From: Lobosporangium transversale
Taxonomy: Eukaryota
Assembly: GCF_002105155.1 (NCBI RefSeq)
Contig: NW_019028982.1
Span: 992,001-1,056,000 of the forward strand
Length of the DNA: 64,000 bases
Direction of reading: 5' to 3'
In this document: one piece after another, positions 12,117 through 39,414 of the stretch
Position numbering within the stretch: position 1 is the first letter of the stretch
Layout: every line of letters starts with the position of its first letter
Notes under the pieces: model-generated
The model's database searches: none
The model's input: only the letters and a program-made list of their open reading frames with translations
Told to the model about the DNA's origin: nothing
Position numbers and translations under genes: made by a program

Positions 12117-12434
12117 TCAATGACAGCAGGTCAAACATTAAGCGCATTGGATTAGGGCAATTGTACACCAACAATGCATTCCTCGAAGAGTCATAAAAGG
12201 CTATTTCCCGACCTGATCGATAGCCTTTGCAAGGCCAACTACATAAAATGCATCGAACAGAGCAAATGGCAGGTAAAGAGTGCTTAGCATACTTGAACAG
12301 TATACAAATGCAACATACACAAACACAAGTATAAACATGCACATGGATGGGCGTGAAAGCCTTACCTGCTACCGTAGGAGTGAACATAGCCAAGAAGGCA
12401 ACATGAAAAAGATAAAGATGCTTGAGAGCCTCAT
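12117..12434 (-). pseudogene. Pseudogenised paralogue of the secreted-peptide family with a different Cys pattern
   Basis: acatcATG start; exon 1 12434-12366 is 69 nt versus 73 nt in the intact genes (4-nt deletion in MRLSSIFIFF..VAFLAMFTPTVA); 127-nt phase-1 intron alignable to the intact intron; exon 2 VGLAKAIDQVGK*PFMTLRGMHCWCTIALIQCA*CLTCCH*. Confidence 0.75.
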
Positions 12435-12737
12435 GATGTGGAATGGATGGTAGAATTCTGAGAAGTCTTTATAAAAGAACAGAAAATAAAGGAATATACA
12501 ACCTGGAGATAAAAAGCGCCTTATACATATGTATTGATGCTTGCATCTCTGAGCTCTTTAGAGTGGAGGATTGCTTAACGGATCATCTCCCATGATTCAT
12601 CATCCATACTCTTACAGATTATCCCAGTTGTGCCGGAGACTAGAGATACCCATCAAATATAGGGCAGGAAGCTCTTGTTCTGATGAGAATACAATAAGGT
12701 TTTGGTATGCGCTGCCGGAAATAGTCGTGGTGACTAT

Positions 12738-14243
12738 CGCCTTATCCCTGAATTTGAAAATAAGATTTTTGCGACCAAAAATGGTCGCAATTTGGAAAAA
12801 TTTAGGGTAGTTTTTTACATGTGTTTTGTACGCATAATAGAGACCTTGCGAAACATTTTTTGTTGTAGAAATAAAGGTTGCTCTTGTAGGCTGCAAAGAC
12901 ATTCTACAAAGGCAAAATGTAGAATTTTTACGTATAACATGGGTTTATACGTTAATTCATAAATTAGCCAACTTTTATTCTAACTTCGCTTCCAAATTGG
13001 AGAAATAGGCCATCAATGGCACCAATTCTCTTTTGTTCTACGTTTTTTGTCAAAAAATGTAGAATGTCTCTTCTACAAGCATAAATATTTTCAAAAAGTC
13101 ATTATAGCCAAAATTAGGTTTGATTTTTCGAATAAGGTTCCGAAACCCTACATTTGTGAGTTTCGCAAGGCCTCTAATATTATAGCTTATTTTTCTCAAT
13201 GCAATTCTGCTTTGCTTTCAAGCAAAGAGGAGCCCTACATGTAGCGCATATCCATTCTGATCGTGAGGTGGACTTCATGCCTTCCTTAATACCCATAACC
13301 CTGCAGTTTTTACATGCCATCCTACTCTTAACATCCTTCCTTCACTTTCTTTGGTTCTTATCGGGAAATGAAAGCCTGGTAGATGTCGACGAGGGCTTGG
13401 AAGAGAGTGCTTAGTAATATATGGGCCTTTTGATATCTTGAAAGTAGCCTCCAGAGACTCATTAGTTTCTACGTTTCTCTTTGAGTTCCTTTGCTCGATG
13501 ACAACTTGAGACTTAGCGATAAAAGTTGGTTTACAAGATTTAAACGAAATTGGCGATGTCCATCTTTTTTTTTTTTTTTTTTTTTTTTTGATCCTTTCCT
13601 AGTATACCATAGTATGTATGAATTGACGATACTTATATCTAATAGCCACAAGAAGAGTGGCATCCAAGAACGAATGGGCCTCATCTGCACACTAGTGTTG
13701 GCGAAGTCACCCGAAGTGATATATTGTGAAAGCAAAGTCGAGTTTCCATCGTGATTGCGGGTGATACTAACATCCATTTCCTCATCAAACAATGTGAGTT
13801 CACCTTCAAAGTATGAGGGCCAGAAACCTTTGAAGTCATCAAGTTGGGATTGATAGTCTTCATCATTAACATTGTATTGCAGATCCATCGTGTACTAGAT
13901 AGAAGTTGAAGGGAAATAGCATAAAAGCCTAGCGGTATGGAAGCGTAGAAAAGTAGGGCTTTTATTGTTATTCTCTCTCAGTATGTCACCAAATGCCTCT
14001 GAAAGACATGAAGGCATAGTTTCAATTGAAATAAAAATAGATTAACCATTCTCATTCTCAAATGAATGAAGGAAAAAATAAGCTCATGGTTTGGTCGTCG
14101 TATAAGAACGTGCATGCTGAATGAATCATCATAATGAAATGCATTTCTTAATGCGCTCCCGTAATACCAGAGATCAAGTTCTTTTAATTTAGCTTAAGAA
14201 TGGGGGGGTCGCAATTAGTAGAATGTTGTTTAACTGAGCACTT

Positions 14244-14278
<35 letters not shown>

Positions 14279-14318
14279 AAAAATTGCGACCATTTTTGGT
14301 CGCAATTAAGGATAAGGG
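12738..14318 (-). mobile_element. Internally deleted piggyBac-like DNA transposon
   Basis: Bipartite asymmetric ends: CCTTATCCCTGAATT + spacer + GCGACCAAAAATGGTCGCAATTT (left) and AAATTGCGACCATTTTTGGTCGCAATTAAGGATAAGGG (right); transposase remnant inside. No clean TTAA TSD. Confidence 0.75.
13180..13690 (-). pseudogene. piggyBac transposase C-terminal fragment
   Basis: RPIRSWMPLFLWLLDISIVNSYILW...QFRLNLVNQLL matches the piggyBac DDD C-terminal motif; downstream CKNC...WICATCRAPLC...QNC matches the piggyBac cysteine-rich C-terminal domain; broken by stops or frameshift. Confidence 0.8.
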
Positions 14319-14507
14319 ATACAAGGCTGGGTCTCCTTTGATTTTGGATCGGGGACACTTCGCGTTTTAGGTTATGGAGTTCAGCTACCGTGGATATTGT
14401 ACACGCCTCGATTCTGTGATATTCCACCTCAAGAGATCGAATGCGGAGTTGAATCGTCAAAAGCTACAGGCTGAGCCAATAGTTCTCTATTCGTTTCACT
14501 TGAGCCT

Positions 14508-14778
14508 TATGTTCACTCCTACGGTAGCAGGTAAGGCTTTCACGCCCATCCATGTGCATGTTTATACTTGTGTTTGTGTATGTTGCATTTGTATACTGTT
14601 CAAGTATGCTAAGCACTCTTTACCTGCCATTTGCTCTGTTCGATGCATTTTATGTAGTTGGCCTTGCAAAGGCTATCGATCAGGTCGGGAAATAGCCTTT
14701 TATGACTCTTCGAGGAATGCATTGTTGGTGTACAATTGCCCTAATCAATGCGCTTAATGTTTGACCTGCTGTCATTGA
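14508..14778 (+). pseudogene. 5'-truncated mirror copy of the 12117-12434 pseudogene
   Basis: Begins at the arm boundary within exon 1 (ATGTTCACTCCTACGGTAGCAG|GTAAGG); carries an extra 1-nt deletion at ~14746. Confidence 0.7.
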
Positions 14779-15769
14779 TATTAATGCCATTTGGATCCAG
14801 CATTGAGTCCTTCGTGGAAGCTGTAGAAAAAAACAAAAAAGTGGAGTAGGACTTGAAGTAGGGAAGTAGCATGCACAAAAGTACAATAAAGCAGCTCTAC
14901 AACAGAACAGACAGTTATAATATGATGTAGTGCATATCATTGCTACAACTGCACACCCATATTTGCAAGGGCATCGCTGCTCGCGCGTTCTCGCTAATGT
15001 GTTTCTATCCTTGAATCATTGTGTTGAATACATCCTAACGGTGCTTCAAGGGAACAAAGAGAACATCCTCTGTTGAAGCGTAGATGTAGCCCTACCCAAA
15101 CTCCAAGCTTGGTGGCGCTTGCCATTTCATTCTATTAAAGAGAAATAAGTAAAGTAAAGGCTTCGTCAAGCTTTGACTTCAGTTGTCTATACCATGCATA
15201 TCACAGACACTGCTCAGTGGCAAGAGCCTATTGTTTCCACTGCATTGTGTCCGCCTTCTTTGAAGGATGCATATAGGACACTAACAAGAGCAGATCAGGA
15301 CCTTCGATCTACTATGTTAGAAGCCGAACCAAATCACACTCTTAGTCAAGCTTTGTGGAGACCAAAACATCAAGAACAAGCTGCTTCATGCAGTAATGCA
15401 TTCTCAAATCTAACGCTGCTGCTTTCAGTCTCAATATGCTGTGCCTGTCAAATACTCCCTCACTTTCACTCTCACTTCTATCTACTGCAACGATGATTTT
15501 ACTAAGCTATTCGTCTAAAGGGTCATATAGGGTCTCTAAAAGGGTTGTAATATGCTATAGGCGAGCAGCTACTTTGCACTTTGGCGTTGGTTACGCCCAT
15601 TATTATGTACAGTACCTCTTATAAGAGGCTCAATGAATGTGTCATATTGCAAAGTTAAGCCAAAATATCTTTTTATTTATTTACACCTCTCACATCGTTT
15701 AGTATTGAACTTCCTAATGATGAGAAGAGTAGCTCATAATGCGTATTTTTGCTTTCAACATCTTTACTA

Positions 15770-16084
15770 TCACTTGCAGCCGAGCAAGCACAAGTTGAGT
15801 AAATTATTGCAGTAAGGTTTAGGGTGGTTCTGGAGACAGAGATTTAAGGATAAGAAGCATTTATCTCGACAGGGATTGGCATCTAGATCAGCCAATTAAA
15901 CAGATAGATGCAATATAACAAGATGAAGTGTTTAATATACTCGAGCAGTGCATAAATGCAGCACGCAAACACAAAAACAGACATGCACATAGATAATTGT
16001 AAGGATCTTACCAACTGAGTTGGGAGCGAACATAACCAAGGCGGCAACAGCCATGGAAAGGACAGCAGTGGTGGAGAACTTCAT
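15770..16084 (-). CDS. Small secreted cysteine-rich peptide precursor, copy 2 (61 aa)
   Basis: Same exon 1 as copy 1; mature NPCRDKCFLSLNLCLQNHPKPYCNNLLNLCLLGCK; mirror of copy 3. Confidence 0.88.
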
Positions 16085-16547
16085 GATGTTGGATAGGTAG
16101 TAGAGATCTGGTGAGCTGTTTTTGTTTGGAGTGTTGTATTGTGTGTGAAGAAAAGAAGAGAAAAAAGGTGAGAGAGGACCTGCTATTATATATAAAAAAA
16201 AAAAAACAGTTGCAGTAAGGATTTGAAAGGCTCTTTCAATGGAGATTAGATTCTAGAACACCTTACAATGGCCTTTTAACTATTTTTTAAGAAATGATTG
16301 AATAGGGACACGCAGGTAAGCTATACAAAAGTATATATTCCTGTCCCTTTTCTTTATTCGTGTGGGAAAAGTGAGTTTATAGTCGGATTGAGCTTTTAAG
16401 GTACGCGATCAGGGAATTAAATCGACGAGGCAATGCGTTTGTGAGAGACCTAATCAAAAAAGCCTTGTCCTCGTAGGAAAGTAACCGTAGAAGCATGAAG
16501 TGTATGCTGTCTTAACTCAGCTGAGTCTGGGACAATCCACTCACGAG

Positions 16548-19500
16548 TGTTGCATATTTCAATATGCAAAATAATAATGACCCGGCTAAAAACTAGGAAA
16601 AATATAAAAAAACACAGTAGGAAATTTCCAAGCAGTACAATAACTCTAACGCGTCACATAAAGACGCGATAAAACACTGACATGAGGGTTCCTGAATAAG
16701 CCCATGTCGCTTTATAGATAGATATGTAGTTACTTGGTACAAGTCCCTCTACCAGGAAATGAATAAATACCCCATGGATGTGGTGTATGGACCGACATCT
16801 TATTCTCACTTACTTTAGTTCCCCATAACTACTTATCTATCCAAATATTTTTCAGATATCTTGCCGTTTTCCTTCGGGCACGATGTCTCGTAGATTGTCA
16901 GAATCTTGAATAGCATGAATGTATGCTAACATTGGTTCATTATGCACATCTAATGCTTGTTGTCTTAAAGTCATGCGTGCTGGGAATAGACGTGATAAAG
17001 CGTCAGGTAAAACATTGAGCACCCCTGGTCGGTAATGCACCGTAAATGAATATCGTAGTATTACGTCCTGCCAGTTAGGCATCATAGCATTCATATCAGG
17101 TTGGGAGTGAATAAACATTAATGCACCATGATCCGTGTACAGGTCAAAGCAGTTGCTCCTATTCGAACTGAAATTTTGTCAATTGATATTTATTTTTTTA
17201 ATCTGAAACGTCATAAATGACAAAATTTCAGTTCGAATAGGAGCACTGCTTTGACCTGTACACGGATCATGGTGAAATTTGTTGAGTGCAAAAACGATGG
17301 CTAACAACTCTTTTTTCGTTGCGCTGTATTTTCGTTCGCTTTGATGGAGCGATCTGGCCATGAAAGAAATATAATTTATATTTTTTGGGTAAGACATGCC
17401 ACGGGGCAGTTGGTATAATACCGCACCAATTCCGACATCAGACGCATCAGTTGCCACATAGAATGGTAGACTAAAGTCGGGAAAGGATAAGACAGGTGCA
17501 TGAGTAAGCAGACGCTTTAAGGCATTGAAAGATTGTAATTGGTCGTCATTCAGTGTGGAAATATCTGTTCGACATCTCAGAGCATCCAAAGGTGCAGCAA
17601 CTTCACTAATGAGTGGTATATATTCGCGGAAAAAGTCGAATGTGCCTAAGTACGATTGAATTTGCTTGGCAGTAGTTGGAGGCTCCCAATCATCGATATT
17701 TGCGAATTTAGAGGGGTCAACGCTTTTACCATGCAGGCCTATTATGAAGCCGAGCAATGAGATTTGCGTACTGTGGAAATTACATTTACCACTGTTGATG
17801 ATTAACTTGGCATCGTTGAGGCGAGTAATCACAGTGCGTACATGTTCGGCGTGTTCTTCTCTGTTCTTTGAAAAAATAACAATATCATCAATGAAGTTGT
17901 AAACGAAAGGAAGATCACCAAGGATGCGAGACCTCGTTGAAATAGACTGGACAATGGTTTCAGGCCAAAAGGTGCCTTCTTAAACATATATTGTTTACCC
18001 TGGTGCATAAATGCTGTTAAGGGCTGATCTGCCTGATTAATAGGCATGCGATGATATGCTTGCGACAGATCAATGGTTGTGAAAATTGCATGCCCAGCAA
18101 GACGAATAATAATATCATTGATAAGGGGTAAAGGAAAACTATCATCTGGGAGGTGTTTATTCAGTGGTCGGGGATCAAGACAAACCCGCCATAATGTTTT
18201 ATTGCCATGTTCATCCTTCTTCGCAGTGAGCGTAAGGGTATTGCTATGGACATTGCCCACAGGGGCTAGCGTAATGACATCATCCTGCAGCCATTTATCG
18301 ATAGCTTCATTCAGGATGGACATTTGTCTTTCGGCAAAGGGACGTGAACGCCTATAGAGGACAGTACCCTCTGGGATAGGAAGAAATACTTTCATTTCAG
18401 GTACAGGGCATGGGCTTTGTTTAGGTATCCGAGCATGTGAAATCTTTTTCATAAAGACTTTTTTCTCAATAATAAATGTTTCGGTATGCTCTTCTTCCGG
18501 TACAGAGCCAGGAATGAGGGAAGGACGTTTGTCTTCCTCAGGTTCAGGTAGCTGATTAGCACCTTGCCCTGGATTATGGCAGCCTGAGAGTCCAAACCCA
18601 AGTTGATAAAATAGATCCATCCCTATGATAAAGGGGTATGATCGATTGATCACTTCTAACGTCGCAGACACGATCCGACTGCCGTATACGACTTCTATAT
18701 TTTCAACCACACCTATACGGGGAATAGTTAAGCTTTCATCAGCCAGAGTGGTAACACTTGAAACAGGGGAGATCTCTTTGTTGTGTTTAAGAATAATATC
18801 TTTTCGGACACATGTAACACTTGCGCCTGTATCAACCAAAGCTTCGTATTTTTCCCCTTCGAAAGTAACAAGAACTATGATCCTTTTGTCAGCTTTCTCT
18901 TGATTGAGATGGAGCTTGGCTAAGGTATGGGCATCATCGTTAGGGATAACATTCGAGGAAGATAAAGATGAAACTTTTATATGAGAAGGTGAGTGTATAA
19001 ATTCAGATTCAAGAGTAGCAGTAACACATTGATCATGCCATAATAATGTTTTAGGATTGATTGATTCCATAGAAATTCTAGGCTGGGTGCCAAAGATCAT
19101 CAATGGTGGTTTCAAGAGAGATGGATTCCGATATGTTTGAGCATGATCAGATAGATCTAGTAGATTTTTGGGATGTATTGAAGTCTTTGCGTTTTTACTA
19201 TCTTCTATTGAACGATCTTCAGTTAAGTTATCGATTAACCGAGGTAGACTTGTTGGAGCCTGTGTATTATCAGTAGAGTTTGACAGATTGTTATCAAAGA
19301 CTGTTTGCTTATTCAGTGACACGATATTATTTGATTTAGGACGATTCTTACCAGATCTACTGTTATGTCTGGTACATTCGGACGCCAGATGTCCGCGTGC
19401 ATTGCATTTTGCACATTGCTTGTGTCCATCCGTATTATGGGAGAAATTTTTGCCACAATGCTGGCAGTCATAGAGGGACTTTGATTTAGCCTCCTCATTG

Positions 19501-20694
19501 TGGGCTTTGCCCTTAGGATTATATCTTTCATCAGACGCTCGTGCGCGGCGCATTGGGCCTGTGTCACGGCGATGAGGTGCAGGATTATCACTGGGGACAA
19601 TCTCTTGTGGGATGTGGGGGCCAGTAAGGCCTCCCGGAATCTTTGTGAACTCGGAGATCGACTTGAAGGCGAGCACCGGTTCTTGTTTCAGGACTTGTAG
19701 CCTGGTGATCATAAGATCGAGCATGAAGGTTTTTACTGTGGCCGTCAGGAGGGAGGTGACCATCTCGCTATCGTCGCTGATACCGTATACCCGTACGTCT
19801 CGGTCCACCCGCATGGCAAATTGATGATAAGTCTCGCGTGTGCCTCTGCCAGTTTCAAGTAATTTCTTAAACTGTGACATACGTTCTTGTTCCGTAAGAG
19901 CGATCTTCAGGAAGGTCGCTTCACACTTCTCCCAGGTTTTCTGATCTTCAGGAAGTTTTTCCAGTTCCTGTTCGAGGTACTGGCGATGGTACTCGCTGAC
20001 CGTCAGGTAAAGCAAGTACCGACCACAGGACCGTTTGAACGACTCTCGACCTACGTACGTACAGACAACATGACGAACCTCATCTAAAAACTTGCGTGGA
20101 TCGGAGGTACTATGGAACCGAGGCATAGCATCTGTGACATTAAGGTGGACCTGCGGGATACTGATCGGTACCACGAGGATGGAATCATTCCTTGGTTTTT
20201 TGAGCTGGAGAGGAGTGGAAAGTGATTCCAGGTCTTGTAAAGATTCTAGGGAATCCTCAGCTCTTTTCTCGAGCACCTTAATTTCATTGACAACTACAGC
20301 TAGGGTTTCCTCAATGTTTCCTTCAGACTTGTTCGCACCATTCTGTGCCAGCAGACGCGTGAGGTACGCCTTTCGGGTGATGAGTTCATTCCTCTTCTGA
20401 TTGATATCCGTTAAGGATCTGGTCATCACACCTTCGATCAACCGAGACAGGCACAGATTCTTCGAGTGGAATATCCATATTCATATCCTCTCCGTGCAAG
20501 GAGTCTTGCGAGTGATCCATCCTCACGGGAGAAGCAGCGTAAGAGATGGACGTAGAGTCATTATCTTGGAGACGAGTGCTCTGCAAATTTGTAACCATTT
20601 CAGCGACTGCAACTTGCGGATCAAGGGAAGCATCATTGACAGAGGCAAGGACAGCACGCTCGGGGGTGTGAGGGGTAGTAGTAGGGTTCAGGTT
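16548..20694 (-). mobile_element. Mirror copy of the Ty3/gypsy element (3' LTR at 16548-16854, 5' end missing)
   Basis: Reverse complement of 21990-26136, with the same lesions and the same host flank beyond the LTR. Confidence 0.92.
17155..17244. mobile_element. Mirror copy of the 90-bp MITE-like insert in RNase H
   Basis: Reverse complement of 25440-25529. Confidence 0.65.
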
Positions 20695-20759
20695 GGAAGA
20701 TGAGAGAGAGATTTTTTGATAATGGATGGGATGTGTATGCAAATCTTCACGTAAAAAAA

Positions 20760-21067
20760 TGAAAAATATTTGGATAGATAAGTAGTAATGGGGAACTAAA
20801 GTAAGTGAGAATAAGATGTCGGTCCATACACCACATCCATGGGGTATTTATTCATTTCCTGGTAGAGGGACTTGTACCAAGTAACTACATATCTATCTAT
20901 AAAGCGACATGGGCTTATTCAGGAACCCTCATGTCAGTGTTTTATCGCGTCTTTATGCGACGCGTTAGAGTTATTGTACTACTTGGAAATTTCCCTACTG
21001 TGTTTTTTTGTATTTTTCCTAGTTTTTAGCCGGGTCATTATTATTTTGCATATTGAAATATGCAACA
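20760..21067 (+). repeat. 5' LTR (shared part; the true LTR may start further left)
   Basis: TG...CA, 308 bp, near identical to 25830-26136. Confidence 0.85.
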
Positions 21068-21174
21068 ACTTTCCCTTTATTGAGGAATGAGGCACACATT
21101 CCAGGCACCAAAGTAGGTTGAGACTGGACGCAAGGAATGATCGCGACTGCTCATTTTCTTTTGTGTAAACGCAT

Positions 21175-21207
<33 letters not shown>

Positions 21208-21590
21208 CAGGGACAAAATATTTTGCTCAAATAGCCTAGCATCATGTTTCTTTCTATTTTTTTTTTTTTTTAACTTTAGATTCTTACACATGTATGAATC
21301 AAGATCAATGATTGGTTCACATCAGTGACGCTTTTGGACAGGATTGTAATTCACAATGTTGATTGGTTTGAAAGATCAGCCAGGATCAGATCATGCGGAA
21401 AGAGATTTGTAATGTCAGGAACGAATCAGACTGAAGGAGAGTTGTAATGAGAAAAGCAATGAGTAGACTCAATTGAAGTTCATTATGCTTTTCATTCCTT
21501 CATTCCTAAAACATTGTTAACACTCAAACTCTTCTCAACACAAGACAGGCTTTCAAACCTCAATTTATCACACTTTTCATTACGTGAATT

Positions 21591-24500
21591 ATGTCTTTCT
21601 CCAACAATACTGCTTCTTCTTCCACCAGCAAAGTTGCTGGCAAAAAACGCGCTCGTGTGGAAATGGAAAATGCCAAGAGCGCAAGTCGTCAGACTTCACC
21701 TTCCCCCGACAGTCCACCCGCTGACCCAGTGTTCTCTTATGTTCCATGGGAGCGTCCTACCAGAGATGGGCGCACGATCAAGAAACTCTTTTTGGAGAGA
21801 GACATCTGTAATTTCAGGGCGCGGACAGAGAGTGCACTCTATCAGGATGGGGATGAAGTGCGACCTCGCAAATATCTCTACCTGGAGGGAGGACAAAAAC
21901 TTGACTTATACAGGAGACCTATAAGCCGTGACAATTTTGACGTATTCTGGGTACATGAGCCATCGTTGTTCAAGCAACTGAGACGTCGTAACCTGAACCC
22001 TACTACTACCCCTCACACCCCCGAGCGTGCTGTCCTTGCCTCTGTCAATGATGCTTCCCTTGATCCGCAAGTTGCAGTCGCTGAAATGGTTACAAATTTG
22101 CAGAGCACTCGTCTCCAAGATAATGACTCTACGTCCATCTCTTACGCTGCTTCTCCCGTGAGGATGGATCACTCGCAAGACTCCTTGCACGGAGAGGATA
22201 TGAATATGGATATTCCACTCGAAGAATCTGTGCCTGTCTCGGTTGATCGAAGGTGTGATGACCAGATCCTTAACGGATATCAATCAGAAGAGGAATGAAC
22301 TCATCACCCGAAAGGCGTACCTCACGCGTCTGCTGGCACAGAATGGTGCGAACAAGTCTGAAGGAAACATTGAGGAAACCCTAGCTGTAGTTGTCAATGA
22401 AATTAAGGTGCTCGAGAAAAGAGCTGAGGATTCCCTAGAATCTTTACAAGACCTGGAATCACTTTCCACTCCTCTCCAGCTCAAAAAACCAAGGAATGAT
22501 TCCATCCTCGTGGTACCGATCAGTATCCCGCAGGTCCACCTTAATGTCACAGATGCTATGCCTCGGTTCCATAGTACCTCCGATCCACGCAAGTTTTTAG
22601 ATGAGGTTCGTCATGTTGTCTGTACGTACGTAGGTCGAGAGTCGTTCAAACGGTCCTGTGGTCGGTACTTGCTTTACCTGACGGTCAGCGAGTACCATCG
22701 CCAGTACCTCGAACAGGAACTGGAAAAACTTCCTGAAGATCAGAAAACCTGGGAGAAGTGTGAAGCGACCTTCCTGAAGATCGCTCTTACGGAACAAGAA
22801 CGTATGTCACAGTTTAAGAAATTACTTGAAACTGGCAGAGGCACACGCGAGACTTATCATCAATTTGCCATGCGGGTGGACCGAGACGTACGGGTATACG
22901 GTATCAGCGACGATAGCGAGATGGTCACCTCCCTCCTGACGGCCACAGTAAAAACCTTCATGCTCGATCTTATGATCACCAGGCTACAAGTCCTGAAACA
23001 AGAACCGGTGCTCGCCTTCAAGTCGATCTCCGAGTTCACAAAGATTCCGGGAGGCCTTACTGGCCCCCACATCCCACAAGAGATTGTCCCCAGTGATAAT
23101 CCTGCACCTCATCGCCGTGACACAGGCCCAATGCGCCGCGCACGAGCGTCTGATGAAAGATATAATCCTAAGGGCAAAGCCCACAATGAGGAGGCTAAAT
23201 CAAAGTCCCTCTATGACTGCCAGCATTGTGGCAAAAATTTCTCCCATAATACGGATGGACACAAGCAATGTGCAAAATGCAATGCACGCGGACATCTGGC
23301 GTCCGAATGTACCAGACATAACAGTAGATCTGGTAAGAATCGTCCTAAATCAAATAATATCGTGTCACTGAATAAGCAAACAGTCTTTGATAACAATCTG
23401 TCAAACTCTACTGATAATACACAGGCTCCAACAAGTCTACCTCGGTTAATCGATAACTTAACTGAAGATCGTTCAATAGAAGATAGTAAAAACGCAAAGA
23501 CTTCAATACATCCCAAAAATCTACTAGATCTATCTGATCATGCTCAAACATATCGGAATCCATCTCTCTTGAAACCACCATTGATGATCTTTGGCACCCA
23601 GCCTAGAATTTCTATGGAATCAATCAATCCTAAAACATTATTATGGCATGATCAATGTGTTACTGCTACTCTTGAATCTGAATTTATACACTCACCTTCT
23701 CATATAAAAGTTTCATCTTTATCTTCCTCGAATGTTATCCCTAACGATGATGCCCATACCTTAGCCAAGCTCCATCTCAATCAAGAGAAAGCTGACAAAA
23801 GGATCATAGTTCTTGTTACTTTCGAAGGGGAAAAATACGAAGCTTTGGTTGATACAGGCGCAAGTGTTACATGTGTCCGAAAAGATATTATTCTTAAACA
23901 CAACAAAGAGATCTCCCCTGTTTCAAGTGTTACCACTCTGGCTGATGAAAGCTTAACTATTCCCCGTATAGGTGTGGTTGAAAATATAGAAGTCGTATAC
24001 GGCAGTCGGATCGTGTCTGCGACGTTAGAAGTGATCAATCGATCATACCCCTTTATCATAGGGATGGATCTATTTTATCAACTTGGGTTTGGACTCTCAG
24101 GCTGCCATAATCCAGGGCAAGGTGCTAATCAGCTACCTGAACCTGAGGAAGACAAACGTCCTTCCCTCATTCCTGGCTCTGTACCGGAAGAAGAGCATAC
24201 CGAAACATTTATTATTGAGAAAAAAGTCTTTATGAAAAAGATTTCACATGCTCGGATACCTAAACAAAGCCCATGCCCTGTACCTGAAATGAAAGTATTT
24301 CTTCCTATCCCAGAGGGTACTGTCCTCTATAGGCGTTCACGTCCCTTTGCCGAAAGACAAATGTCCATCCTGAATGAAGCTATCGATAAATGGCTGCAGG
24401 ATGATGTCATTACGCTAGCCCCTGTGGGCAATGTCCATAGCAATACCCTTACGCTCACTGCGAAGAAGGATGAACATGGCAATAAAACATTATGGCGGGT

Positions 24501-25832
24501 TTGTCTTGATCCCCGACCACTGAATAAACACCTCCCAGATGATAGTTTTCCTTTACCCCTTATCAATGATATTATTATTCGTCTTGCTGGGCATGCAATT
24601 TTCACAACCATTGATCTGTCGCAAGCATATCATCGCATGCCTATTAATCAGGCAGATCAGCCCTTAACAGCATTTATGCACCAGGGTAAACAATATATGT
24701 TTAAGAAGGCACCTTTTGGCCTGAAACCATTGTCCAGTCTATTTCAACGAGGTCTCGCATCCTTGGTGATCTTCCTTTCGTTTACAACTTCATTGATGAT
24801 ATTGTTATTTTTTCAAAGAACAGAGAAGAACACGCCGAACATGTACGCACTGTGATTACTCGCCTCAACGATGCCAAGTTAATCATCAACAGTGGTAAAT
24901 GTAATTTCCACAGTACGCAAATCTCATTGCTCGGCTTCATAATAGGCCTGCATGGTAAAAGCGTTGACCCCTCTAAATTCGCAAATATCGATGATTGGGA
25001 GCCTCCAACTACTGCCAAGCAAATTCAATCGTACTTAGGCACATTCGACTTTTTCCGCGAATATATACCACTCATTAGTGAAGTTGCTGCACCTTTGGAT
25101 GCTCTGAGATGTCGAACAGATATTTCCACACTGAATGACGACCAATTACAATCTTTCAATGCCTTAAAGCGTCTGCTTACTCATGCACCTGTCTTATCCT
25201 TTCCCGACTTTAGTCTACCATTCTATGTGGCAACTGATGCGTCTGATGTCGGAATTGGTGCGGTATTATACCAACTGCCCCGTGGCATGTCTTACCCAAA
25301 AAATATAAATTATATTTCTTTCATGGCCAGATCGCTCCATCAAAGCGAACGAAAATACAGCGCAACGAAAAAAGAGTTGTTAGCCATCGTTTTTGCACTC
25401 AACAAATTTCACCATGATCCGTGTACAGGTCAAAGCAGTGCTCCTATTCGAACTGAAATTTTGTCATTTATGACGTTTCAGATTAAAAAAATAAATATCA
25501 ATTGACAAAATTTCAGTTCGAATAGGAGCAACTGCTTTGACCTGTACACGGATCATGGTGCATTAATGTTTATTCACTCCCAACCTGATATGAATGCTAT
25601 GATGCCTAACTGGCAGGACGTAATACTACGATATTCATTTACGGTGCATTACCGACCAGGGGTGCTCAATGTTTTACCTGACGCTTTATCACGTCTATTC
25701 CCAGCACGCATGACTTTAAGACAACAAGCATTAGATGTGCATAATGAACCAATGTTAGCATACATTCATGCTATTCAAGATTCTGACAATCTACGAGACA
25801 TCGTGCCCGAAGGAAAACGGCAAGATATCTGA
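21591..25832 (+). pseudogene. gag-pol pseudogene: Gag with zinc knuckle, aspartic protease, RT, RNase H
   Basis: CAKCNARGHLASEC knuckle; ALVDTGAS protease; RT motifs LWRVCLDPRPLN, IDLSQAYH, APFGL and, after a frameshift at ~24750, VYNFIDDIV; RNase H TDASDVGIGAVL, KELLAIV, FDLYTDH. Frame change near 22243, insert at ~25410-25529, truncation before integrase. Confidence 0.92.
25440..25529. mobile_element. 90-bp MITE-like insert in RNase H
   Basis: 27-bp inverted ends GCTCCTATTCGAACTGAAATTTTGTCA / TGACAAAATTTCAGTTCGAATAGGAGC interrupt the LNKFH...FDLYTDH segment. Confidence 0.65.
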
Positions 25833-26136
25833 AAAATATTTGGATAGATAAGTAGTTATGGGGAACTAAAGTAAGTGAGAATAAGATGTCGGTCCATACA
25901 CCACATCCATGGGGTATTTATTCATTTCCTGGTAGAGGGACTTGTACCAAGTAACTACATATCTATCTATAAAGCGACATGGGCTTATTCAGGAACCCTC
26001 ATGTCAGTGTTTTATCGCGTCTTTATGTGACGCGTTAGAGTTATTGTACTGCTTGGAAATTTCCTACTGTGTTTTTTTATATTTTTCCTAGTTTTTAGCC
26101 GGGTCATTATTATTTTGCATATTGAAATATGCAACA
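25830..26136 (+). repeat. 3' LTR
   Basis: Direct repeat of 20760-21067, ending GCAACA. Confidence 0.85.
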
Positions 26137-26599
26137 CTCGTGAGTGGATTGTCCCAGACTCAGCTGAGTTAAGACAGCATACACTTCATGCTTCTACGGT
26201 TACTTTCCTACGAGGACAAGGCTTTTTTGATTAGGTCTCTCACAAACGCATTGCCTCGTCGATTTAATTCCCTGATCGCGTACCTTAAAAGCTCAATCCG
26301 ACTATAAACTCACTTTTCCCACACGAATAAAGAAAAGGGACAGGAATATATACTTTTGTATAGCTTACCTGCGTGTCCCTATTCAATCATTTCTTAAAAA
26401 ATAGTTAAAAGGCCATTGTAAGGTGTTCTAGAATCTAATCTCCATTGAAAGAGCCTTTCAAATCCTTACTGCAACTGTTTTTTTTTTTTTATATATAATA
26501 GCAGGTCCTCTCTCACCTTTTTTCTCTTCTTTTCTTCACACACAATACAACACTCCAAACAAAAACAGCTCACCAGATCTCTACTACCTATCCAACATC

Positions 26600-26914
26600 A
26601 TGAAGTTCTCCACCACTGCTGTCCTTTCCATGGCTGTTGCCGCCTTGGTTATGTTCGCTCCCAACTCAGTTGGTAAGATCCTTACAATTATCTATGTGCA
26701 TGTCTGTTTTTGTGTTTGCGTGCTGCATTTATGCACTGCTCGAGTATATTAAACACTTCATCTTGTTATATTGCATCTATCTGTTTAATTGGCTGATCTA
26801 GATGCCAATCCCTGTCGAGATAAATGCTTCTTATCCTTAAATCTCTGTCTCCAGAACCACCCTAAACCTTACTGCAATAATTTACTCAACTTGTGCTTGC
26901 TCGGCTGCAAGTGA
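26600..26914 (+). CDS. Small secreted cysteine-rich peptide precursor, copy 3 (61 aa)
   Basis: Exons 26600-26672 and 26802-26914; mature NPCRDKCFLSLNLCLQNHPKPYCNNLLNLCLLGCK. Confidence 0.88.
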
Positions 26915-27905
26915 TAGTAAAGATGTTGAAAGCAAAAATACGCATTATGAGCTACTCTTCTCATCATTAGGAAGTTCAATACTAAACGATGTGAGAGGTG
27001 TAAATAAATAAAAAGATATTTTGGCTTAACTTTGCAATATGACACATTCATTGAGCCTCTTATAAGAGGTACTGTACATAATAATGGGCGTAACCAACGC
27101 CAAAGTGCAAAGTAGCTGCTCGCCTATAGCATATTACAACCCTTTTAGAGACCCTATATGACCCTTTAGACGAATAGCTTAGTAAAATCATCGTTGCAGT
27201 AGATAGAAGTGAGAGTGAAAGTGAGGGAGTATTTGACAGGCACAGCATATTGAGACTGAAAGCAGCAGCGTTAGATTTGAGAATGCATTACTGCATGAAG
27301 CAGCTTGTTCTTGATGTTTTGGTCTCCACAAAGCTTGACTAAGAGTGTGATTTGGTTCGGCTTCTAACATAGTAGATCGAAGGTCCTGATCTGCTCTTGT
27401 TAGTGTCCTATATGCATCCTTCAAAGAAGGCGGACACAATGCAGTGGAAACAATAGGCTCTTGCCACTGAGCAGTGTCTGTGATATGCATGGTATAGACA
27501 ACTGAAGTCAAAGCTTGACGAAGCCTTTACTTTACTTATTTCTCTTTAATAGAATGAAATGGCAAGCGCCACCAAGCTTGGAGTTTGGGTAGGGCTACAT
27601 CTACGCTTCAACAGAGGATGTTCTCTTTGTTCCCTTGAAGCACCGTTAGGATGTATTCAACACAATGATTCAAGGATAGAAACACATTAGCGAGAACGCG
27701 CGAGCAGCGATGCCCTTGCAAATATGGGTGTGCAGTTGTAGCAATGATATGCACTACATCATATTATAACTGTCTGTTCTGTTGTAAAGCTGCTTTATTG
27801 TACTTTTGTGCATGCTACTTCCCTATTTCAAGTCCTACTCCACTTTTTTGTTCTTTTCTACAGCTTCGACGGAGGACTCAATGCTGGATCCAAATGTCAT
27901 TAATA

Positions 27906-28223
27906 TCAATGACAGCAGGTCAAACATTAAGCGCATTGGATTAGGGCAATTGTACACCAACAATGCATTCCTCGAAGAGTCATAAAAGGCTATTTCCCGA
28001 CCTGATCGATAGCCTTTGCAAGGCCAACTACATAAAATGCATCGAACAGAGCAAATGGCAGGTAAAGAGTGCTTAGCATACTTGAACAGTATACAAATGC
28101 AACATACACAAACACAAGTATAAACATGCACATGGATGGGCGTGAAAGCCTTACCTGCTACCGTAGGAGTGAACATAGCCAAGAAGGCAACATGAAAAAG
28201 ATAAAGATGCTTGAGAGCCTCAT
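27906..28223 (-). pseudogene. Direct copy of the 12117-12434 secreted-peptide pseudogene
   Basis: Same sequence at offset 15789. Confidence 0.75.
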
Positions 28224-28526
28224 GATGTGGAATGGATGGTAGAATTCTGAGAAGTCTTTATAAAAGAACAGAAAATAAAGGAATATACAACCTGGAGATA
28301 AAAAGCGCCTTATACATATGTATTGATGCTTGCATCTCTGAGCTCTTTAGAGTGGAGGATTGCTTAACGGATCATCTCCCATGATTCATCATCCATACTC
28401 TTACAGATTATCCCAGTTGTGCCGGAGACTAGAGATACCCATCAAATATAGGGCAGGAAGCTCTTGTTCTGATGAGAATACAATAAGGTTTTGGTATGCG
28501 CTGCCGGAAATAGTCGTGGTGACTAT

Positions 28527-30032
28527 CGCCTTATCCCTGAATTTGAAAATAAGATTTTTGCGACCAAAAATGGTCGCAATTTGGAAAAATTTAGGGTAGT
28601 TTTTTACATGTGTTTTGTACGCATAATAGAGACCTTGCGAAACATTTTTTGTTGTAGAAATAAAGGTTGCTCTTGTAGGCTGCAAAGACATTCTACAAAG
28701 GCAAAATGTAGAATTTTTACGTATAACATGGGTTTATACGTTAATTCATAAATTAGCCAACTTTTATTCTAACTTCGCTTCCAAATTGGAGAAATAGGCC
28801 ATCAATGGCACCAATTCTCTTTTGTTCTACGTTTTTTGTCAAAAAATGTAGAATGTCTCTTCTACAAGCATAAATATTTTCAAAAAGTCATTATAGCCAA
28901 AATTAGGTTTGATTTTTCGAATAAGGTTCCGAAACCCTACATTTGTGAGTTTCGCAAGGCCTCTAATATTATAGCTTATTTTTCTCAATGCAATTCTGCT
29001 TTGCTTTCAAGCAAAGAGGAGCCCTACATGTAGCGCATATCCATTCTGATCGTGAGGTGGACTTCATGCCTTCCTTAATACCCATAACCCTGCAGTTTTT
29101 ACATGCCATCCTACTCTTAACATCCTTCCTTCACTTTCTTTGGTTCTTATCGGGAAATGAAAGCCTGGTAGATGTCGACGAGGGCTTGGAAGAGAGTGCT
29201 TAGTAATATATGGGCCTTTTGATATCTTGAAAGTAGCCTCCAGAGACTCATTAGTTTCTACGTTTCTCTTTGAGTTCCTTTGCTCGATGACAACTTGAGA
29301 CTTAGCGATAAAAGTTGGTTTACAAGATTTAAACGAAATTGGCGATGTCCATCTTTTTTTTTTTTTTTTTTTTTTTTTGATCCTTTCCTAGTATACCATA
29401 GTATGTATGAATTGACGATACTTATATCTAATAGCCACAAGAAGAGTGGCATCCAAGAACGAATGGGCCTCATCTGCACACTAGTGTTGGCGAAGTCACC
29501 CGAAGTGATATATTGTGAAAGCAAAGTCGAGTTTCCATCGTGATTGCGGGTGATACTAACATCCATTTCCTCATCAAACAATGTGAGTTCACCTTCAAAG
29601 TATGAGGGCCAGAAACCTTTGAAGTCATCAAGTTGGGATTGATAGTCTTCATCATTAACATTGTATTGCAGATCCATCGTGTACTAGATAGAAGTTGAAG
29701 GGAAATAGCATAAAAGCCTAGCGGTATGGAAGCGTAGAAAAGTAGGGCTTTTATTGTTATTCTCTCTCAGTATGTCACCAAATGCCTCTGAAAGACATGA
29801 AGGCATAGTTTCAATTGAAATAAAAATAGATTAACCATTCTCATTCTCAAATGAATGAAGGAAAAAATAAGCTCATGGTTTGGTCGTCGTATAAGAACGT
29901 GCATGCTGAATGAATCATCATAATGAAATGCATTTCTTAATGCGCTCCCGTAATACCAGAGATCAAGTTCTTTTAATTTAGCTTAAGAATGGGGGGGTCG
30001 CAATTAGTAGAATGTTGTTTAACTGAGCACTT

Positions 30033-30067
<35 letters not shown>

Positions 30068-30107
30068 AAAAATTGCGACCATTTTTGGTCGCAATTAAGG
30101 ATAAGGG
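28527..30107 (-). mobile_element. Direct copy of the piggyBac-like relic
   Basis: Same sequence as 12738-14318; ORF 29258-29677 equals 13469-13888. Confidence 0.75.
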
Positions 30108-30296
30108 ATACAAGGCTGGGTCTCCTTTGATTTTGGATCGGGGACACTTCGCGTTTTAGGTTATGGAGTTCAGCTACCGTGGATATTGTACACGCCTCGA
30201 TTCTGTGATATTCCACCTCAAGAGATCGAATGCGGAGTTGAATCGTCAAAAGCTACAGGCTGAGCCAATAGTTCTCTATTCGTTTCACTTGAGCCT

Positions 30297-30568
30297 TATG
30301 TTCACTCCTACGGTAGCAGGTAAGGCTTTCACGCCCATCCATGTGCATGTTTATACTTGTGTTTGTGTATGTTGCATTTGTATACTGTTCAAGTATGCTA
30401 AGCACTCTTTACCTGCCATTTGCTCTGTTCGATGCATTTTATGTAGTTGGCCTTGCAAAGGCTATCGATCAGGTCGGGAAATAGCCTTTTATGACTCTTC
30501 GAGGAATGCATTGTTGGTGTACAATTGCCCTAATCCAATGCGCTTAATGTTTGACCTGCTGTCATTGA
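30297..30568 (+). pseudogene. 5'-truncated mirror copy of the secreted-peptide pseudogene
   Basis: Starts at the arm boundary inside exon 1; same intron and exon 2 as the minus-strand copy at 27906-28223. Confidence 0.7.
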
Positions 30569-31559
30569 TATTAATGACATTTGGATCCAGCATTGAGTCC
30601 TCCGTCGAAGCTGTAGAAAAGAACAAAAAAGTGGAGTAGGACTTGAAATAGGGAAGTAGCATGCACAAAAGTACAATAAAGCAGCTTTACAACAGAACAG
30701 ACAGTTATAATATGATGTAGTGCATATCATTGCTACAACTGCACACCCATATTTGCAAGGGCATCGCTGCTCGCGCGTTCTCGCTAATGTGTTTCTATCC
30801 TTGAATCATTGTGTTGAATACATCCTAACGGTGCTTCAAGGGAACAAAGAGAACATCCTCTGTTGAAGCGTAGATGTAGCCCTACCCAAACTCCAAGCTT
30901 GGTGGCGCTTGCCATTTCATTCTATTAAAGAGAAATAAGTAAAGTAAAGGCTTCGTCAAGCTTTGACTTCAGTTGTCTATACCATGCATATCACAGACAC
31001 TGCTCAGTGGCAAGAGCCTATTGTTTCCACTGCATTGTGTCCGCCTTCTTTGAAGGATGCATATAGGACACTAACAAGAGCAGATCAGGACCTTCGATCT
31101 ACTATGTTAGAAGCCGAACCAAATCACACTCTTAGTCAAGCTTTGTGGAGACCAAAACATCAAGAACAAGCTGCTTCATGCAGTAATGCATTCTCAAATC
31201 TAACGCTGCTGCTTTCAGTCTCAATATGCTGTGCCTGTCAAATACTCCCTCACTTTCACTCTCACTTCTATCTACTGCAACGATGATTTTACTAAGCTAT
31301 TCGTCTAAAGGGTCATATAGGGTCTCTAAAAGGGTTGTAATATGCTATAGGCGAGCAGCTACTTTGCACTTTGGCGTTGGTTACGCCCATTATTATGTAC
31401 AGTACCTCTTATAAGAGGCTCAATGAATGTGTCATATTGCAAAGTTAAGCCAAAATATCTTTTTATTTATTTACAACTCTTACATCGTTCAGTATTGAAC
31501 TTCCTAATGATGAGAAGAGTAGCTCATAATGCGTATTTTTGCTTTCAACATCTTTACTA

Positions 31560-31871
31560 TCACTGGCAGCCGAGCAAGCACAAGTTGAGTAAATTATTGC
31601 AGAAAGGTTTAGGGTGGGACCCGAGACAGAGATTTAAGGATATGAGGCAGTCATCTCGACAAGATGCATCTAGATCAGCCAATTAAACAGATAGATGCAA
31701 TATAACAAGATGAAGTGTTTAATATACTTGAACAGTGCATAAATGCAGCACGCAAACTCAAAAACAGACATGCACATAGATAATTGTAAGGATCTTACCA
31801 ACTGAGTTGGGAGCGAACATAACCAAGGCGGCAACAGCCATGGAAAGGACAGCAGTGGTGGAGAACTTCAT
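31560..31871 (-). CDS. Small secreted cysteine-rich peptide precursor, copy 4 (60 aa)
   Basis: Same exon 1 as the others; mature SCRDDCLISLNLCLGSHPKPFCNNLLNLCLLGCQ. Confidence 0.88.
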
Positions 31872-32795
31872 GATGTTGGATAGGTAGTAGAGATCTGGTG
31901 AGCTGTTTTTGTTTGGAGTGTTGTATTGTGTGTGAAGAAAAGAAGAGAAAAAAGGTGAGAGAGGACCTGCTATTATATATATAAAAAAAAAACAGTTGCA
32001 GTAACAATTTGAAAGGCTCTTTCAATGGAGATTAGATTCTACAACACCCTTACAATGGCCTTTTAACTATTTTTTAAGAAATGATTGAATAGGGGCACGC
32101 AGGTAAGCTATACAAAAGCATACATTCCTGTTCCTTTTCTTTATTCGTGTGGGGAAAGTGAGTTTATAGTAGAATTAAGCTTTTGAGATACGCGATCAGG
32201 GAATTAAATCGACGAAGCAATGAATTTGTGGGACACTCAATCAAAGAAATCTTGCTGCCATAACAAAAATATAAATTTTCTCAACATTTGGTTCTATGAA
32301 GCTGCAGTGATGCGTATATGTGAGATGGTTGACGGAAAGACTGTGTACTCATGTATCATATTACCAAACAGGCGAAGCTACTTTATCCATTTGGGATACT
32401 CGATCAAAGCATGTTGTTCACACTTGAAGCTATAAAATCGATACGATGGCATCCGATGGAACCTTTGCCTTGAATATTCATCTCATGCTTTACGTAGAGG
32501 GATATCATTAGTAAGAAGTTTGTGTGCTATCCTCATCTAGTACCACTAGATTGTTTCTAGCAACGAACCCAGCTGGATCAGAGTCTGAGGCAATGCATTC
32601 AATTAGAGACTGTGAACCTTGCATATTTTATTCCTCTGGTAGTTAGTACATGCATCTACCAGGCTGAAACTACGGTCCTCTCTCTCTACCAGGATAAGCC
32701 ATATCCGTCTGGAGAGGCCATAGAGGTTTTAGGCATGTGCCAAAAAAGCGCACATCAGTTCGGGAGGGATAGCGATCAAGCCTAATCGAGATCTT

Positions 32796-32988
32796 TATAT
32801 CCTCCAACTCGTTTGGTCAGTGATTCATATATTTTCTTTTCAAAAAACGATGATTGAATTGATTTGGTGGCTGATTTTGACATTTCACCCTCCGTGACGA
32901 ACTGGTGCCAAGGAAATAATTGGCTCCCAATTCAATCAAGATTATTCAAAAAATATATGAATCACTGACCAAATGGGACGGAGATATA
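32796..32988. mobile_element. ~190-bp MITE with Stowaway/Tc1-mariner-like ends
   Basis: TATATCCTCC...TTTGGTCAGTGATTCATATATTTT mirrors AAAATATATGAATCACTGACCAAATGGGACGGAGATATA; TA-rich flanks. Confidence 0.7.
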
Positions 32989-33046
32989 CTAATATTCAGA
33001 TGAATAAACTATATAAATGTAAGACTCATACTATCATATACATGTA

Positions 33047-34382: not shown

Positions 34383-34803
34383 TACACTATCATTATTATT
34401 CAGATTGTGTATCACATAGTCTCAACATATTATCATCAGTAGAACCGTAGGGTCGATTATCTGTCCTTTCCATTCAGTAAATGTTTCAAGCATTTGATGC
34501 AATTGAGATGATCCTGTAAGAAGTATCGATGGTCAGTCATGGAAGATCGTCCAGAGTACTGCTGCATCAGTCGCTAAGCAATCCTCTACTTCAAAATCCA
34601 AAAAGAGAAGGGAGAAGAAACCTTTGACTTGTAGATAGCCATTGATTGCTCGATGATTCAAGTATAAGCGTACAGACAAGGTTTTTTTTTTCTTCTTCTA
34701 TAAAACCAGGCCCTTTCTCGTCTTTTTTTCTCTTCATTTCTTTACACACAGTATGACACTTCAAAGAAAAGCTCACTAGATCTCTACTATCTATCCCTAC
34801 ATC

Positions 34804-35049
34804 ATGAAGTTCTCTACCACTGCTGTCCTTTCCATGGCTGTTGCTGCCTTGATACATGATTCGAGTGTGCTACGCGCTTTGTCTCTGTCTGTTACCTATC
34901 TATTTGATTGGTTGATACAGATGGACACCGAAGCTGCACCATGACCTGCTATAATGCCTTTAATGAATACGTTGCTAACCCTTGGAAAGTTGGACGATAC
35001 AAAGATGTTCTCGGGAGGCTTGTTTGTTTGGAACTGCAATATGGATTAG
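34804..35049 (+). pseudogene. Decayed paralogue of the secreted Cys-rich peptide gene
   Basis: 5' UTR and MKFSTTAVLSMAVAAL nearly identical to the intact copies; donor and 5' part of intron deleted; acceptor region TTGATTGGTTGATACAG resembles TTAATTGGCTGATCTAG; exon 2 DGHRSCTMTCYNAFNEYVANPWKVGRYKDVL... has TAC near expected TGC positions and a frameshifted end. Confidence 0.8.

Positions 35050-38960: not shown

Positions 38961-38991
<31 letters not shown>

Positions 38992-39372: not shown

Positions 39373-39414
<42 letters not shown>

What the first reader, a model, noticed from the sequence alone, without database searches (positions are those of the whole stretch)
12389..30296. The 2.1-kb inner spacer is flipped between the big arms: a possible invertible segment
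Seen: everything else in the big arms is mirror-image, but spacers 12389-14507 and 28178-30296 are direct copies (offset 15789). Inference: recombination between the ~2-kb inner inverted arms reversed one spacer after duplication, as with plastid IR flip-flop isomers. No recombinase gene is visible, so homologous recombination is the likely route and both orientations may coexist.
Basis: partly seen in the sequence, partly recalled or inferred. Interest (0 to 1): 0.7.

Follow-up and report, generated by a model that had tools for sequence, protein, structure and literature searches.

The report
Flipped spacer in nested fungal palindrome
In a soil fungus, a recently duplicated mirror-image region carries four copies of a small, likely secreted peptide gene, and one 2.1-kb spacer inside it points the 'wrong' way, most likely because ordinary recombination between its flanking repeats flipped it once, a known kind of event rather than a dedicated switch.

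Summary
Observation confirmed. Spacers 12389-14507 and 28178-30296 are direct copies (0 of 2119 differences) inside 10.8-kb mirror arms. The window is from a Mortierellaceae fungus. Short-read contigs from three studies support the duplication (depth about 1:2:4:2 for flank, outer arm, inner arm, spacer). They also show a one-way exchange among the four inner arms: a five-SNP allele that a clean mirror copy would hold twice is present once (23-27% of depth, 3 of 4 runs). So gene conversion acted after the duplication. The best reading is non-allelic homologous recombination between the ~2-kb inner arms (conversion plus crossover), as at the Saccharomyces chromosome XIV flip/flop region. The orientation itself was not tested: it needs words over 1,180 bases and only contigs were available. 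Assembly error (about 0.2) and ongoing flip-flop (about 0.1) stay open. No recombinase was found in the window. The inner repeat is an inverted gene duplication, not a transposon end. Its arms carry an unplaced six-cysteine, predicted helical-hairpin peptide in three versions. A new member of a known kind; modest interest, mostly from the cargo.

The parts
9891..20694 (.). Left big arm (likely the derived inverted copy)
   Evidence: contig break exactly at 9891 and depth doubling in X1
21990..32794 (.). Right big arm (likely ancestral site: the retroelement ORF 21591-22298 runs on into it from the centre, and a further peptide paralog lies beyond it)
20695..21989 (.). Unique centre with a 308-bp LTR-like repeat (20760-21067) and the start of the retroelement's first ORF
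10436..12388 (.). Inner arm a1 (outer type A, inner allele X)
14508..16461 (.). Inner arm a2 (outer type B, the only arm with inner allele Y at 14787-14858)
26223..28177 (.). Inner arm a3 (outer type B, inner allele X; inferred to have lost Y by conversion)
30297..32249 (.). Inner arm a4 (outer type A with four B-like sites and private sites, inner allele X)
12389..14507 (+). Spacer copy 1
   Evidence: both spacer-arm junctions are bridged by contigs
28178..30296 (+). Spacer copy 2, a direct copy; inferred to be the flipped one
10814..11125 (+). Peptide gene, two exons, 129-bp GT-AG intron, signal-peptide-like exon 1, six-cysteine exon 2 (version A1)
15770..16084 (-). Peptide gene, version B
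   Evidence: a spliced B-type contig in run X7
26600..26914 (+). Peptide gene, version B; exon 2 folds as a predicted two-helix hairpin (pLDDT 94, single sequence)
31560..31871 (-). Peptide gene, version A4 (3 amino-acid differences from A1)
12236..12470 (-). Decayed paralog of the peptide gene that starts in the spacer (ATG 12434; copy at 28223) and crosses the spacer-arm junction; exon 1 is out of frame and meets a stop
   Evidence: (score 141 against a shuffle maximum of 46 in 100); contig 12359-12834 matches with no differences in X1-X3
12746..14318 (-). Internally deleted multi-copy DNA transposon remnant inside the spacer, piggyBac-like by resemblance only
   Evidence: 25-bp perfect inverted repeat 12769-12793/14281-14305; CCC/GGG ends seen in sequence; zf-Tnp_2 E=0.037, below the family cut-off; many variant contigs
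20760..26136 (+). Truncated Ty3/gypsy-like retroelement (protease, RT, RNase H; no integrase hit) between two 308-bp LTR-like repeats; its 3' part is mirrored at 16548-20694

Best explanation
The two spacers are identical direct copies inside a 10.8-kb inverted duplication, and the right-hand one was most likely flipped once by homologous recombination (gene conversion with a crossover) between its own ~2-kb inverted arms. Inferred order of events: (1) an older inverted duplication of a peptide-gene segment, breaking inside exon 1 of a now-decayed paralog, made the inner repeat; (2) conversion homogenised the inner ~1.2-1.3 kb while the peptide-coding and promoter parts stayed different (types A and B); (3) a very recent inverted duplication copied the whole unit with its flanks; (4) in the right copy, exchange between a3 and a4 erased allele Y and reversed the spacer. 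No dedicated recombinase or switch function is needed, and the state would be stable in culture. Shown: the geometry, approximate dosage and the 3:1 allele pattern. Inferred: the order of events, the crossover, which copy flipped, and the stability.
For: Geometry. Duplication: contig depths in X1 are 10 (flank), 23.5 (outer arm), 42.7 (inner arm) and 21.7 (spacer left), with a break at 9891; the merged contigs in X2 and X3 fit the same model (181 against 192 expected; 14.5 against 14.7). One-way exchange: two 132-bp allelic contigs have depths 27.8:10.4, 435.8:136.6 and 31.8:9.4 in X1-X3, while the outer types A:B are 21.4:20.9, 281:290 and 201:244 in X1, X2 and X4. Y has about one copy in the genome, so it has no outside donor and is best read as ancestral and lost from a3. 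a1- and a4-private alleles have depths 146 and 135 in X2, as assembled. Substrate: a3 and a4 are identical for 1179 bp from the spacer. Assembly quality, indirect only: 0 N in the window, and the window's own protein is listed on a 1.35-Mb record. Precedent: PMC9731477 (abstract and sections 9, 10, 15 read), PMC5010909 and PMC8327919 (passages read).
Against: No call linked a spacer end to an outer arm type. The assembled and mirrored versions have the same words up to 1180 bases, and a mirror plus conversion gives the same 3:1 count. X4 shows no Y contig (contigs drop variants), and X3's A:B is 25.6:16.7, not even. The spacer's right end has only 1.3-1.55 units of depth instead of 2 in 4 of 4 runs; the neighbouring poly-A run is my untested explanation. 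Two of the 7 a2-private and 4 of the 5 a4-private differences are not shown by any contig. The tool warns that contig depth is no strict copy number. One of the three studies may be the source of the assembly, and all may be one strain.
Confidence: 0.42

Rival explanations
1. Nothing was physically inverted. The right spacer and a3's inner part were replaced by a long gene conversion (gap repair) that used the left unit as template in direct register, starting 353-1321 bp out in a3 and ending within 280 bp in a4.
For: One event explains both the direct spacer and the loss of Y from a3. The two 6-kb units are 98.4% direct repeats, and a1 and a3 are identical for 1297 bp from the spacer, the longest run of any arm pair.
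Against: It needs a tract of at least 2.5 kb and removal of the original 2.1-kb spacer, against a tract of about 70-150 bp for the crossover model (inference). The spacers are identical, so they cannot tell donor from copy.
Confidence: 0.23
2. Assembly mis-orientation: the real structure is a true mirror with a Y-to-X conversion in one arm, and the assembler placed one spacer (or one inner block) backwards.
For: Words up to 1180 bases cannot separate the two versions. PMC9731477 (section 15) says short-read assemblies miss the orientation between such repeats. One a2 indel at 14745 is absent from all 4 runs' contigs and may be a consensus error.
Against: The assembly has no gaps across a 10.8-kb perfect repeat and places copy-private alleles at the dosage seen in reads, which suggests long reads (inferred, not shown). 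Reads of 1.4 kb are enough to orient the spacer, and 2.5 kb reach unique flanks.
Confidence: 0.2
3. Ongoing flip-flop: both spacers keep inverting, and the culture holds both orientations at each locus, as in plastid genomes.
For: The arms show several conversion patches since a duplication young enough to have 0 differences in 4778 two-copy bases. Crossovers without conversion would leave the allele counts unchanged, so one search does not exclude this.
Against: Y stays at 23-27% in three studies, with no sign of erosion. No recombinase was found in the window. The yeast analogue did not flip in about 53,800 mitoses and 950 meioses (PMC9731477, section 9). Flipping would change no intact gene: the intact peptide genes lie outside the flipped part and the gene crossing the junction is decayed.
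Confidence: 0.12
4. Transposition: the spacer or the whole arm-spacer-arm unit is a foldback or other DNA transposon that inserted twice in the same direction.
For: A transposon remnant fills about 1.57 kb of the spacer, and the unit looks like a long-TIR element.
Against: The 357- and 189-bp spacer parts outside the remnant are also direct copies. The unit's outer ends fade out without a target-site duplication (best match 4 bp, not at the ends). Both units share mirrored flanks. Peptide-gene homology crosses the left junction, so the inner repeat is a gene duplication.
Confidence: 0.03

Closest known systems
Saccharomyces chromosome XIV flip/flop (FF) region (PMC9731477; abstract and sections 9, 10, 15 read)
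   Same: A fungal nuclear segment between near-identical inverted repeats that are made of duplicated genes. The repeats are homogenised by gene conversion, inversion is proposed as the crossover by-product, and no recombinase is invoked.
   Different: [quoted passage not shown] Here 2.1 kb lie between 1.95-kb arms that are only partly homogenised, the unit is itself duplicated in a larger palindrome so both orientations sit in one assembly, and there is no population evidence.
Komagataella phaffii centromere mid-region inversions (PMC5010909; passages read)
   Same: About 2-kb inverted repeats around a 1-kb core whose orientation differs among isolates through recombination in the repeats, and was unchanged among laboratory derivatives.
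   Different: Those are CenH3-bound centromeres. Nothing here points to a centromere, and it was not tested; these arms carry peptide genes.
Primate X-chromosome palindrome spacer inversions (PMC8327919; passages read)
   Same: Arms over 99% identical carrying gene families; intrachromatid NAHR inverts the spacer, mostly without harm.
   Different: Those are much larger and old. This palindrome looks very recent, is half retroelement, and the flip is in a nested inner repeat rather than the central spacer.
Plastid inverted-repeat flip-flop (PMC7145664; abstract read)
   Same: A single-copy segment between inverted repeats found in two orientations.
   Different: There the two forms are at equal frequency within individuals, and species with short repeats have a single form. 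Here coexistence at one locus is untested, the DNA is nuclear and the identical stretch is only about 1.2 kb.

Membership tests
NAHR-driven inversion between homogenised inverted repeats (FF-region type) | Long near-identical inverted repeats flank the segment | tested here: met
   1953-1955-bp arms, about 97.5% alike, a3/a4 identical over the inner 1179 bp
NAHR-driven inversion between homogenised inverted repeats (FF-region type) | Gene conversion between the repeats | tested here: met
   3:1 allele pattern in the assembly and in 3 of 4 runs; identity falls from 100% near the spacer to about 91% at the outer end. The donor arm is not identified.
NAHR-driven inversion between homogenised inverted repeats (FF-region type) | Both orientations shown by molecules that span a repeat | tested here: inconclusive
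   Both orientations are in the assembly; the contigs break at the shared arm segments
NAHR-driven inversion between homogenised inverted repeats (FF-region type) | Recurrent inversion across strains or species | not testable with these tools
   No fungal genome collection was on hand; no whole genome is held
Plastid-type flip-flop isomers | Two isomers near 1:1 within one individual | not testable with these tools
   Only short-read contigs were served
Site-specific invertible switch (tyrosine or serine recombinase) | A cognate recombinase gene nearby | tested here: not met
   No such Pfam family in 57 of 67 ORFs of 100 aa or more; the other 10 are repeat copies. This holds for the window only: intron-split genes and the rest of the genome were not tested.
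Site-specific invertible switch (tyrosine or serine recombinase) | Inversion changes expression of an intact gene | tested here: not met
   The only gene crossing a junction is out of frame; the four intact peptide genes keep their own upstream regions outside the spacer
Foldback or long-TIR transposon | Sharp termini with a target-site duplication | tested here: not met
   The ends fade and there is no duplication at the ends
piggyBac (remnant inside the spacer) | DDE_Tnp_1_7 transposase and TTAA target site (features recalled) | tested here: inconclusive
   Only zf-Tnp_2 at E=0.037, below the cut-off; no homologue; the flanks read TTAT and ATAC by eye
Inverted-repeat centromere (K. phaffii or C. 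tropicalis type) | CenH3 binding on the core | not testable with these tools
   No ChIP data
Disulfide-stapled alpha-hairpin peptides (family resemblance recalled) | Two-helix hairpin with paired CX3C motifs and sequence or fold kinship to a named member | tested here: inconclusive
   Predicted helices 3-16 and 21-33; spacing CX3CX6CX8CX6CX3C seen in the sequence; kinship to a named member is not established

The most novel reading that the evidence does not exclude
The nested palindrome works as a recombination cassette. Frequent conversion and flipping among four arms shuffle the mature region of an undescribed, expressed six-cysteine hairpin peptide (three versions already present, signal exon unchanged), giving a Mortierellaceae fungus a standing source of peptide variants, with both spacer orientations coexisting among nuclei.
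Probability: 0.08. Interest if true: 0.65.

Novelty: new member of a known kind. Interest (0 to 1): 0.36.

Why it matters
If the orientation holds, this locus catches a flip and its conversion footprint in one haploid genome, with the unflipped copy 16 kb away as a built-in control. That makes the 'conversion with crossover' model of inversion between repeats testable with four PCRs. The mechanism itself is well known. The less ordinary part is the cargo: a small two-exon six-cysteine peptide gene in four copies and three versions, for which no relative turned up in the searches run here. The flip also left two 6-kb direct repeats, which would be prone to deleting about 15.8 kb (inference).

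Tried and rejected
No whole genome is held, so other copies and a recombinase elsewhere in the genome could not be sought. No RNA holder was listed on record; X7 is RNA only by the tool's guess. No joints changing strand were seen, as expected of contigs that break at repeats, so this is no evidence on orientation. Peptide homologue searches gave nothing: the word search found no candidate, the Atlas gave no usable hit, HMMER on 1.84 billion representatives gave 2 hits at E 9e-5 and 7e-4, both in tandem-repeat proteins and rejected as chance, Pfam gave 0 families, and a 35-base exon-1 pattern had 0 matches in metagenome contigs. All of these were run on exon pieces of 24-40 aa or one exact pattern, so they are weak. 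The fold search gave a best Z of 5.3 with generic helix pairs and no specific match. The spacer ORF had no longer homologue among 211 candidates. Rfam gave 0 matches in 7000-36000. Earlier scan notes held nothing. Literature: a search with Mortierellaceae, inverted repeat, segmental duplication, palindrome and gene conversion (3 of 5 terms) listed 15 of 558 papers, none mentioning Mortierellaceae. A search for Mortierella with small secreted, cysteine-rich, helical hairpin and antimicrobial peptide (4 of 5 terms) gave 0 papers. A search on sister-chromatid conversion gave 1 paper, seen as a listing only. The target-site test for the spacer's transposon remnant used a left end 7 bases off, so that point rests on reading by eye. 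A foldback-read artefact for the big palindrome is rejected: the centre is 1295 bp of unique sequence, both outer flanks differ, and depth doubles. No supplements were consulted.
Full report
Setting. The window is eukaryotic. The gene at 479-3091 has 38 homologues at E 1e-10 or better among 7986 scored candidates, and every named one is from a Mortierellaceae genus (family membership of those genera recalled). The window's own protein is listed on a record of 1,354,255 bases. The window has no N. No whole genome is held.

Observation. Self-alignment gives big mirror arms 9886-20694 and 21990-32799 around a 1295-bp centre. Each big arm holds an inner inverted repeat: a1 10436-12388 with a2 14508-16461, and a3 26223-28177 with a4 30297-32249. 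The spacers 12389-14507 and 28178-30296 differ at 0 of 2119 positions in direct orientation. The two-copy parts of the big arms are perfect mirrors (0 of 545 and 0 of 4233 differences), so the duplication is very recent or fully homogenised.

Fine structure of the inner arms. From 1322 bp out from the spacer, the arms fall into two types, A (a1, a4) and B (a2, a3), which is the mirror pattern. Closer in they are identical except for clusters private to one arm: 7 differences in a2 at 239-391 bp (allele Y, against X in the other three), 5 in a4 at 1180-1307, and 4 in a1 at 1298-1411. A clean mirror duplication should give Y twice.

Read data. Four runs from three studies hold 84-86% of the words of 7000-16900; all are short-read contigs. 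One study may be the source of the assembly, and all may be the same strain. In X1, contig depths are 10 for the unique flank, 23.5 for 9891-10620 with a break exactly at the arm edge, 42.7 for the inner arm and 21.7 for the spacer's left end. X2 and X3 merge flank and outer arm, at depths that fit the same model. The two allelic 132-bp contigs over 14757-14888 have X:Y depths of 27.8:10.4, 435.8:136.6 and 31.8:9.4; X4 shows only X. A:B is 21.4:20.9 (X1), 281:290 (X2), 25.6:16.7 (X3) and 201:244 (X4). The a1- and a4-private alleles are 146 and 135 in X2. So the duplication, five of the seven Y sites and the 3:1 pattern are real, and Y has no second copy in the genome from which it could have come. 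The simplest reading is that Y is ancestral and was lost from a3 by gene conversion after the big duplication. Against: the spacer's right end has 1.3-1.55 units of depth rather than 2 in all 4 runs. It lies next to a 37-base poly-A run, and a flank contig beside a poly-T run is similarly low in X3 (6.95 against about 10), but this explanation is untested. The tool also warns that contig depth is no strict copy number.

What the reads cannot say. The assembled arrangement and one with the right spacer mirrored have identical words up to 1180 bases. The contigs break at the shared arm segments, so orientation is untested, and a mirror plus conversion gives the same allele counts. The case for the assembly is indirect: it is gap-free across a 10.8-kb perfect repeat and places private alleles at the right dosage, which suggests long reads. 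Reads of 1.4 kb would be enough to orient the spacer.

What the inner repeat is. Each arm carries a two-exon gene with a 24-codon signal-peptide-like exon, identical in all four copies, a 129-bp intron, and a six-cysteine exon in three versions. A contig of depth 1532 in X7 (RNA by the tool's guess, a different sample with an 8% share) joins the donor at 10886 to the B-type exon 2, which supports the gene model and expression. Exon 2 alone is predicted to be a two-helix hairpin. A decayed paralog begins inside the spacer and its homology crosses the left junction (score 141, shuffle maximum 46), whereas on the right side homology starts at the junction. So the inner repeat arose as an inverted gene duplication with a break in that paralog's first exon. 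It is not a transposon end: there are no sharp termini and no target-site duplication. Most of the spacer is a deleted multi-copy transposon remnant, piggyBac-like by resemblance only, but the 357 and 189 bp outside it are direct copies too. No recombinase family was hit in 57 of 67 ORFs; the other 10 are repeat copies. Flipping the spacer would change no intact gene.

Mechanism. I put 0.42 on conversion with a crossover between a3 and a4, which erased Y and reversed the spacer, in one or two events. I put 0.23 on a long direct-register conversion from the left unit, which gives the same product without a physical inversion. Together, a real past exchange has about 0.65. Assembly error gets 0.2, ongoing flip-flop 0.12 and transposition 0.03.

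Comparison. The Saccharomyces FF region is the closest case: gene-bearing inverted repeats homogenised by conversion, with inversion as a by-product and no change in about 53,800 mitoses and 950 meioses (PMC9731477, abstract and sections 9, 10, 15 read). K. phaffii centromere cores differ in orientation among isolates through about 2-kb repeats (PMC5010909, passages read). Primate X palindrome spacers were inverted between species in about half of the cases where orientation could be determined (PMC8327919, passages read). Plastid flip-flop has equal isomers within individuals, and a single form where repeats are short (PMC7145664, abstract read), so it is the weaker analogy. The locus works like an NAHR inversion and meets two of that kind's four features tested or testable; direct proof of orientation and recurrence across strains are missing.

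Verdict. A real nested duplication with real conversion and a probably real one-off flip: a new member of a known kind, interest 0.36. I found no paper on this locus or peptide, which cover an open-access library only. The peptide cassette is the lead worth following.

Noticed in passing
window 10814-11125, 15770-16084, 26600-26914, 31560-31871: Unplaced family of small two-exon six-cysteine peptides. Exon 1 is identical in all four copies while exon 2 differs (7 amino-acid changes between A1 and B, 3 between A1 and A4), which hints at diversifying selection. Loose contig ends at 10809 and 10868 point to further paralogs elsewhere.
   Followed up: partly
window 34681-34950: A further decayed paralog of the peptide gene (84% alike over the upstream region and exon 1) just right of the right big arm.
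   Followed up: no
window 52804-55522 and 33037-34386: Tc1/mariner-type elements: two 99.6%-alike copies in inverted orientation only 26 bp apart, both with an intact 337-aa transposase ORF, and a third copy with an interrupted ORF at 33037-34386. A near-perfect 2.7-kb palindrome of this kind is expected to be unstable.
   Followed up: no
window 20760-26136: The Ty3/gypsy-like element stops near the expected start of the integrase, where a 308-bp LTR-like repeat begins. No target-site duplication flanks the LTR pair, and a 151-bp hairpin interrupts the RNase H region at 25410-25560 (mirror 17124-17274).
   Followed up: partly
window 9803-9890 and 32795-32990: Both outer edges of the big duplication abut transposon-like ends: a remnant resembling the spacer element's right end on the left, and a MITE-like palindrome on the right. 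A small hairpin straddles the left edge. Transposon-triggered duplication is possible.
   Followed up: partly
window 7515-7884: 370-bp imperfect palindrome (about 80%), MITE-like.
   Followed up: no
window 14289-14507: The spacer's right end has lower contig depth than its left end in 4 of 4 runs (ratio 0.62-0.76). A poly-A effect is likely but not shown.
   Followed up: partly
window 15088 (run X4): A loose end that resembles a loxP-type library adapter (recalled); treated as a library artefact.
   Followed up: no
window 38724-43380 and 59932-63744: Ordinary host gene fragments by Pfam: DHHC (weak), TCTP, FAD-binding/ALO oxidase, Rce1-like protease, KIN17.
   Followed up: no
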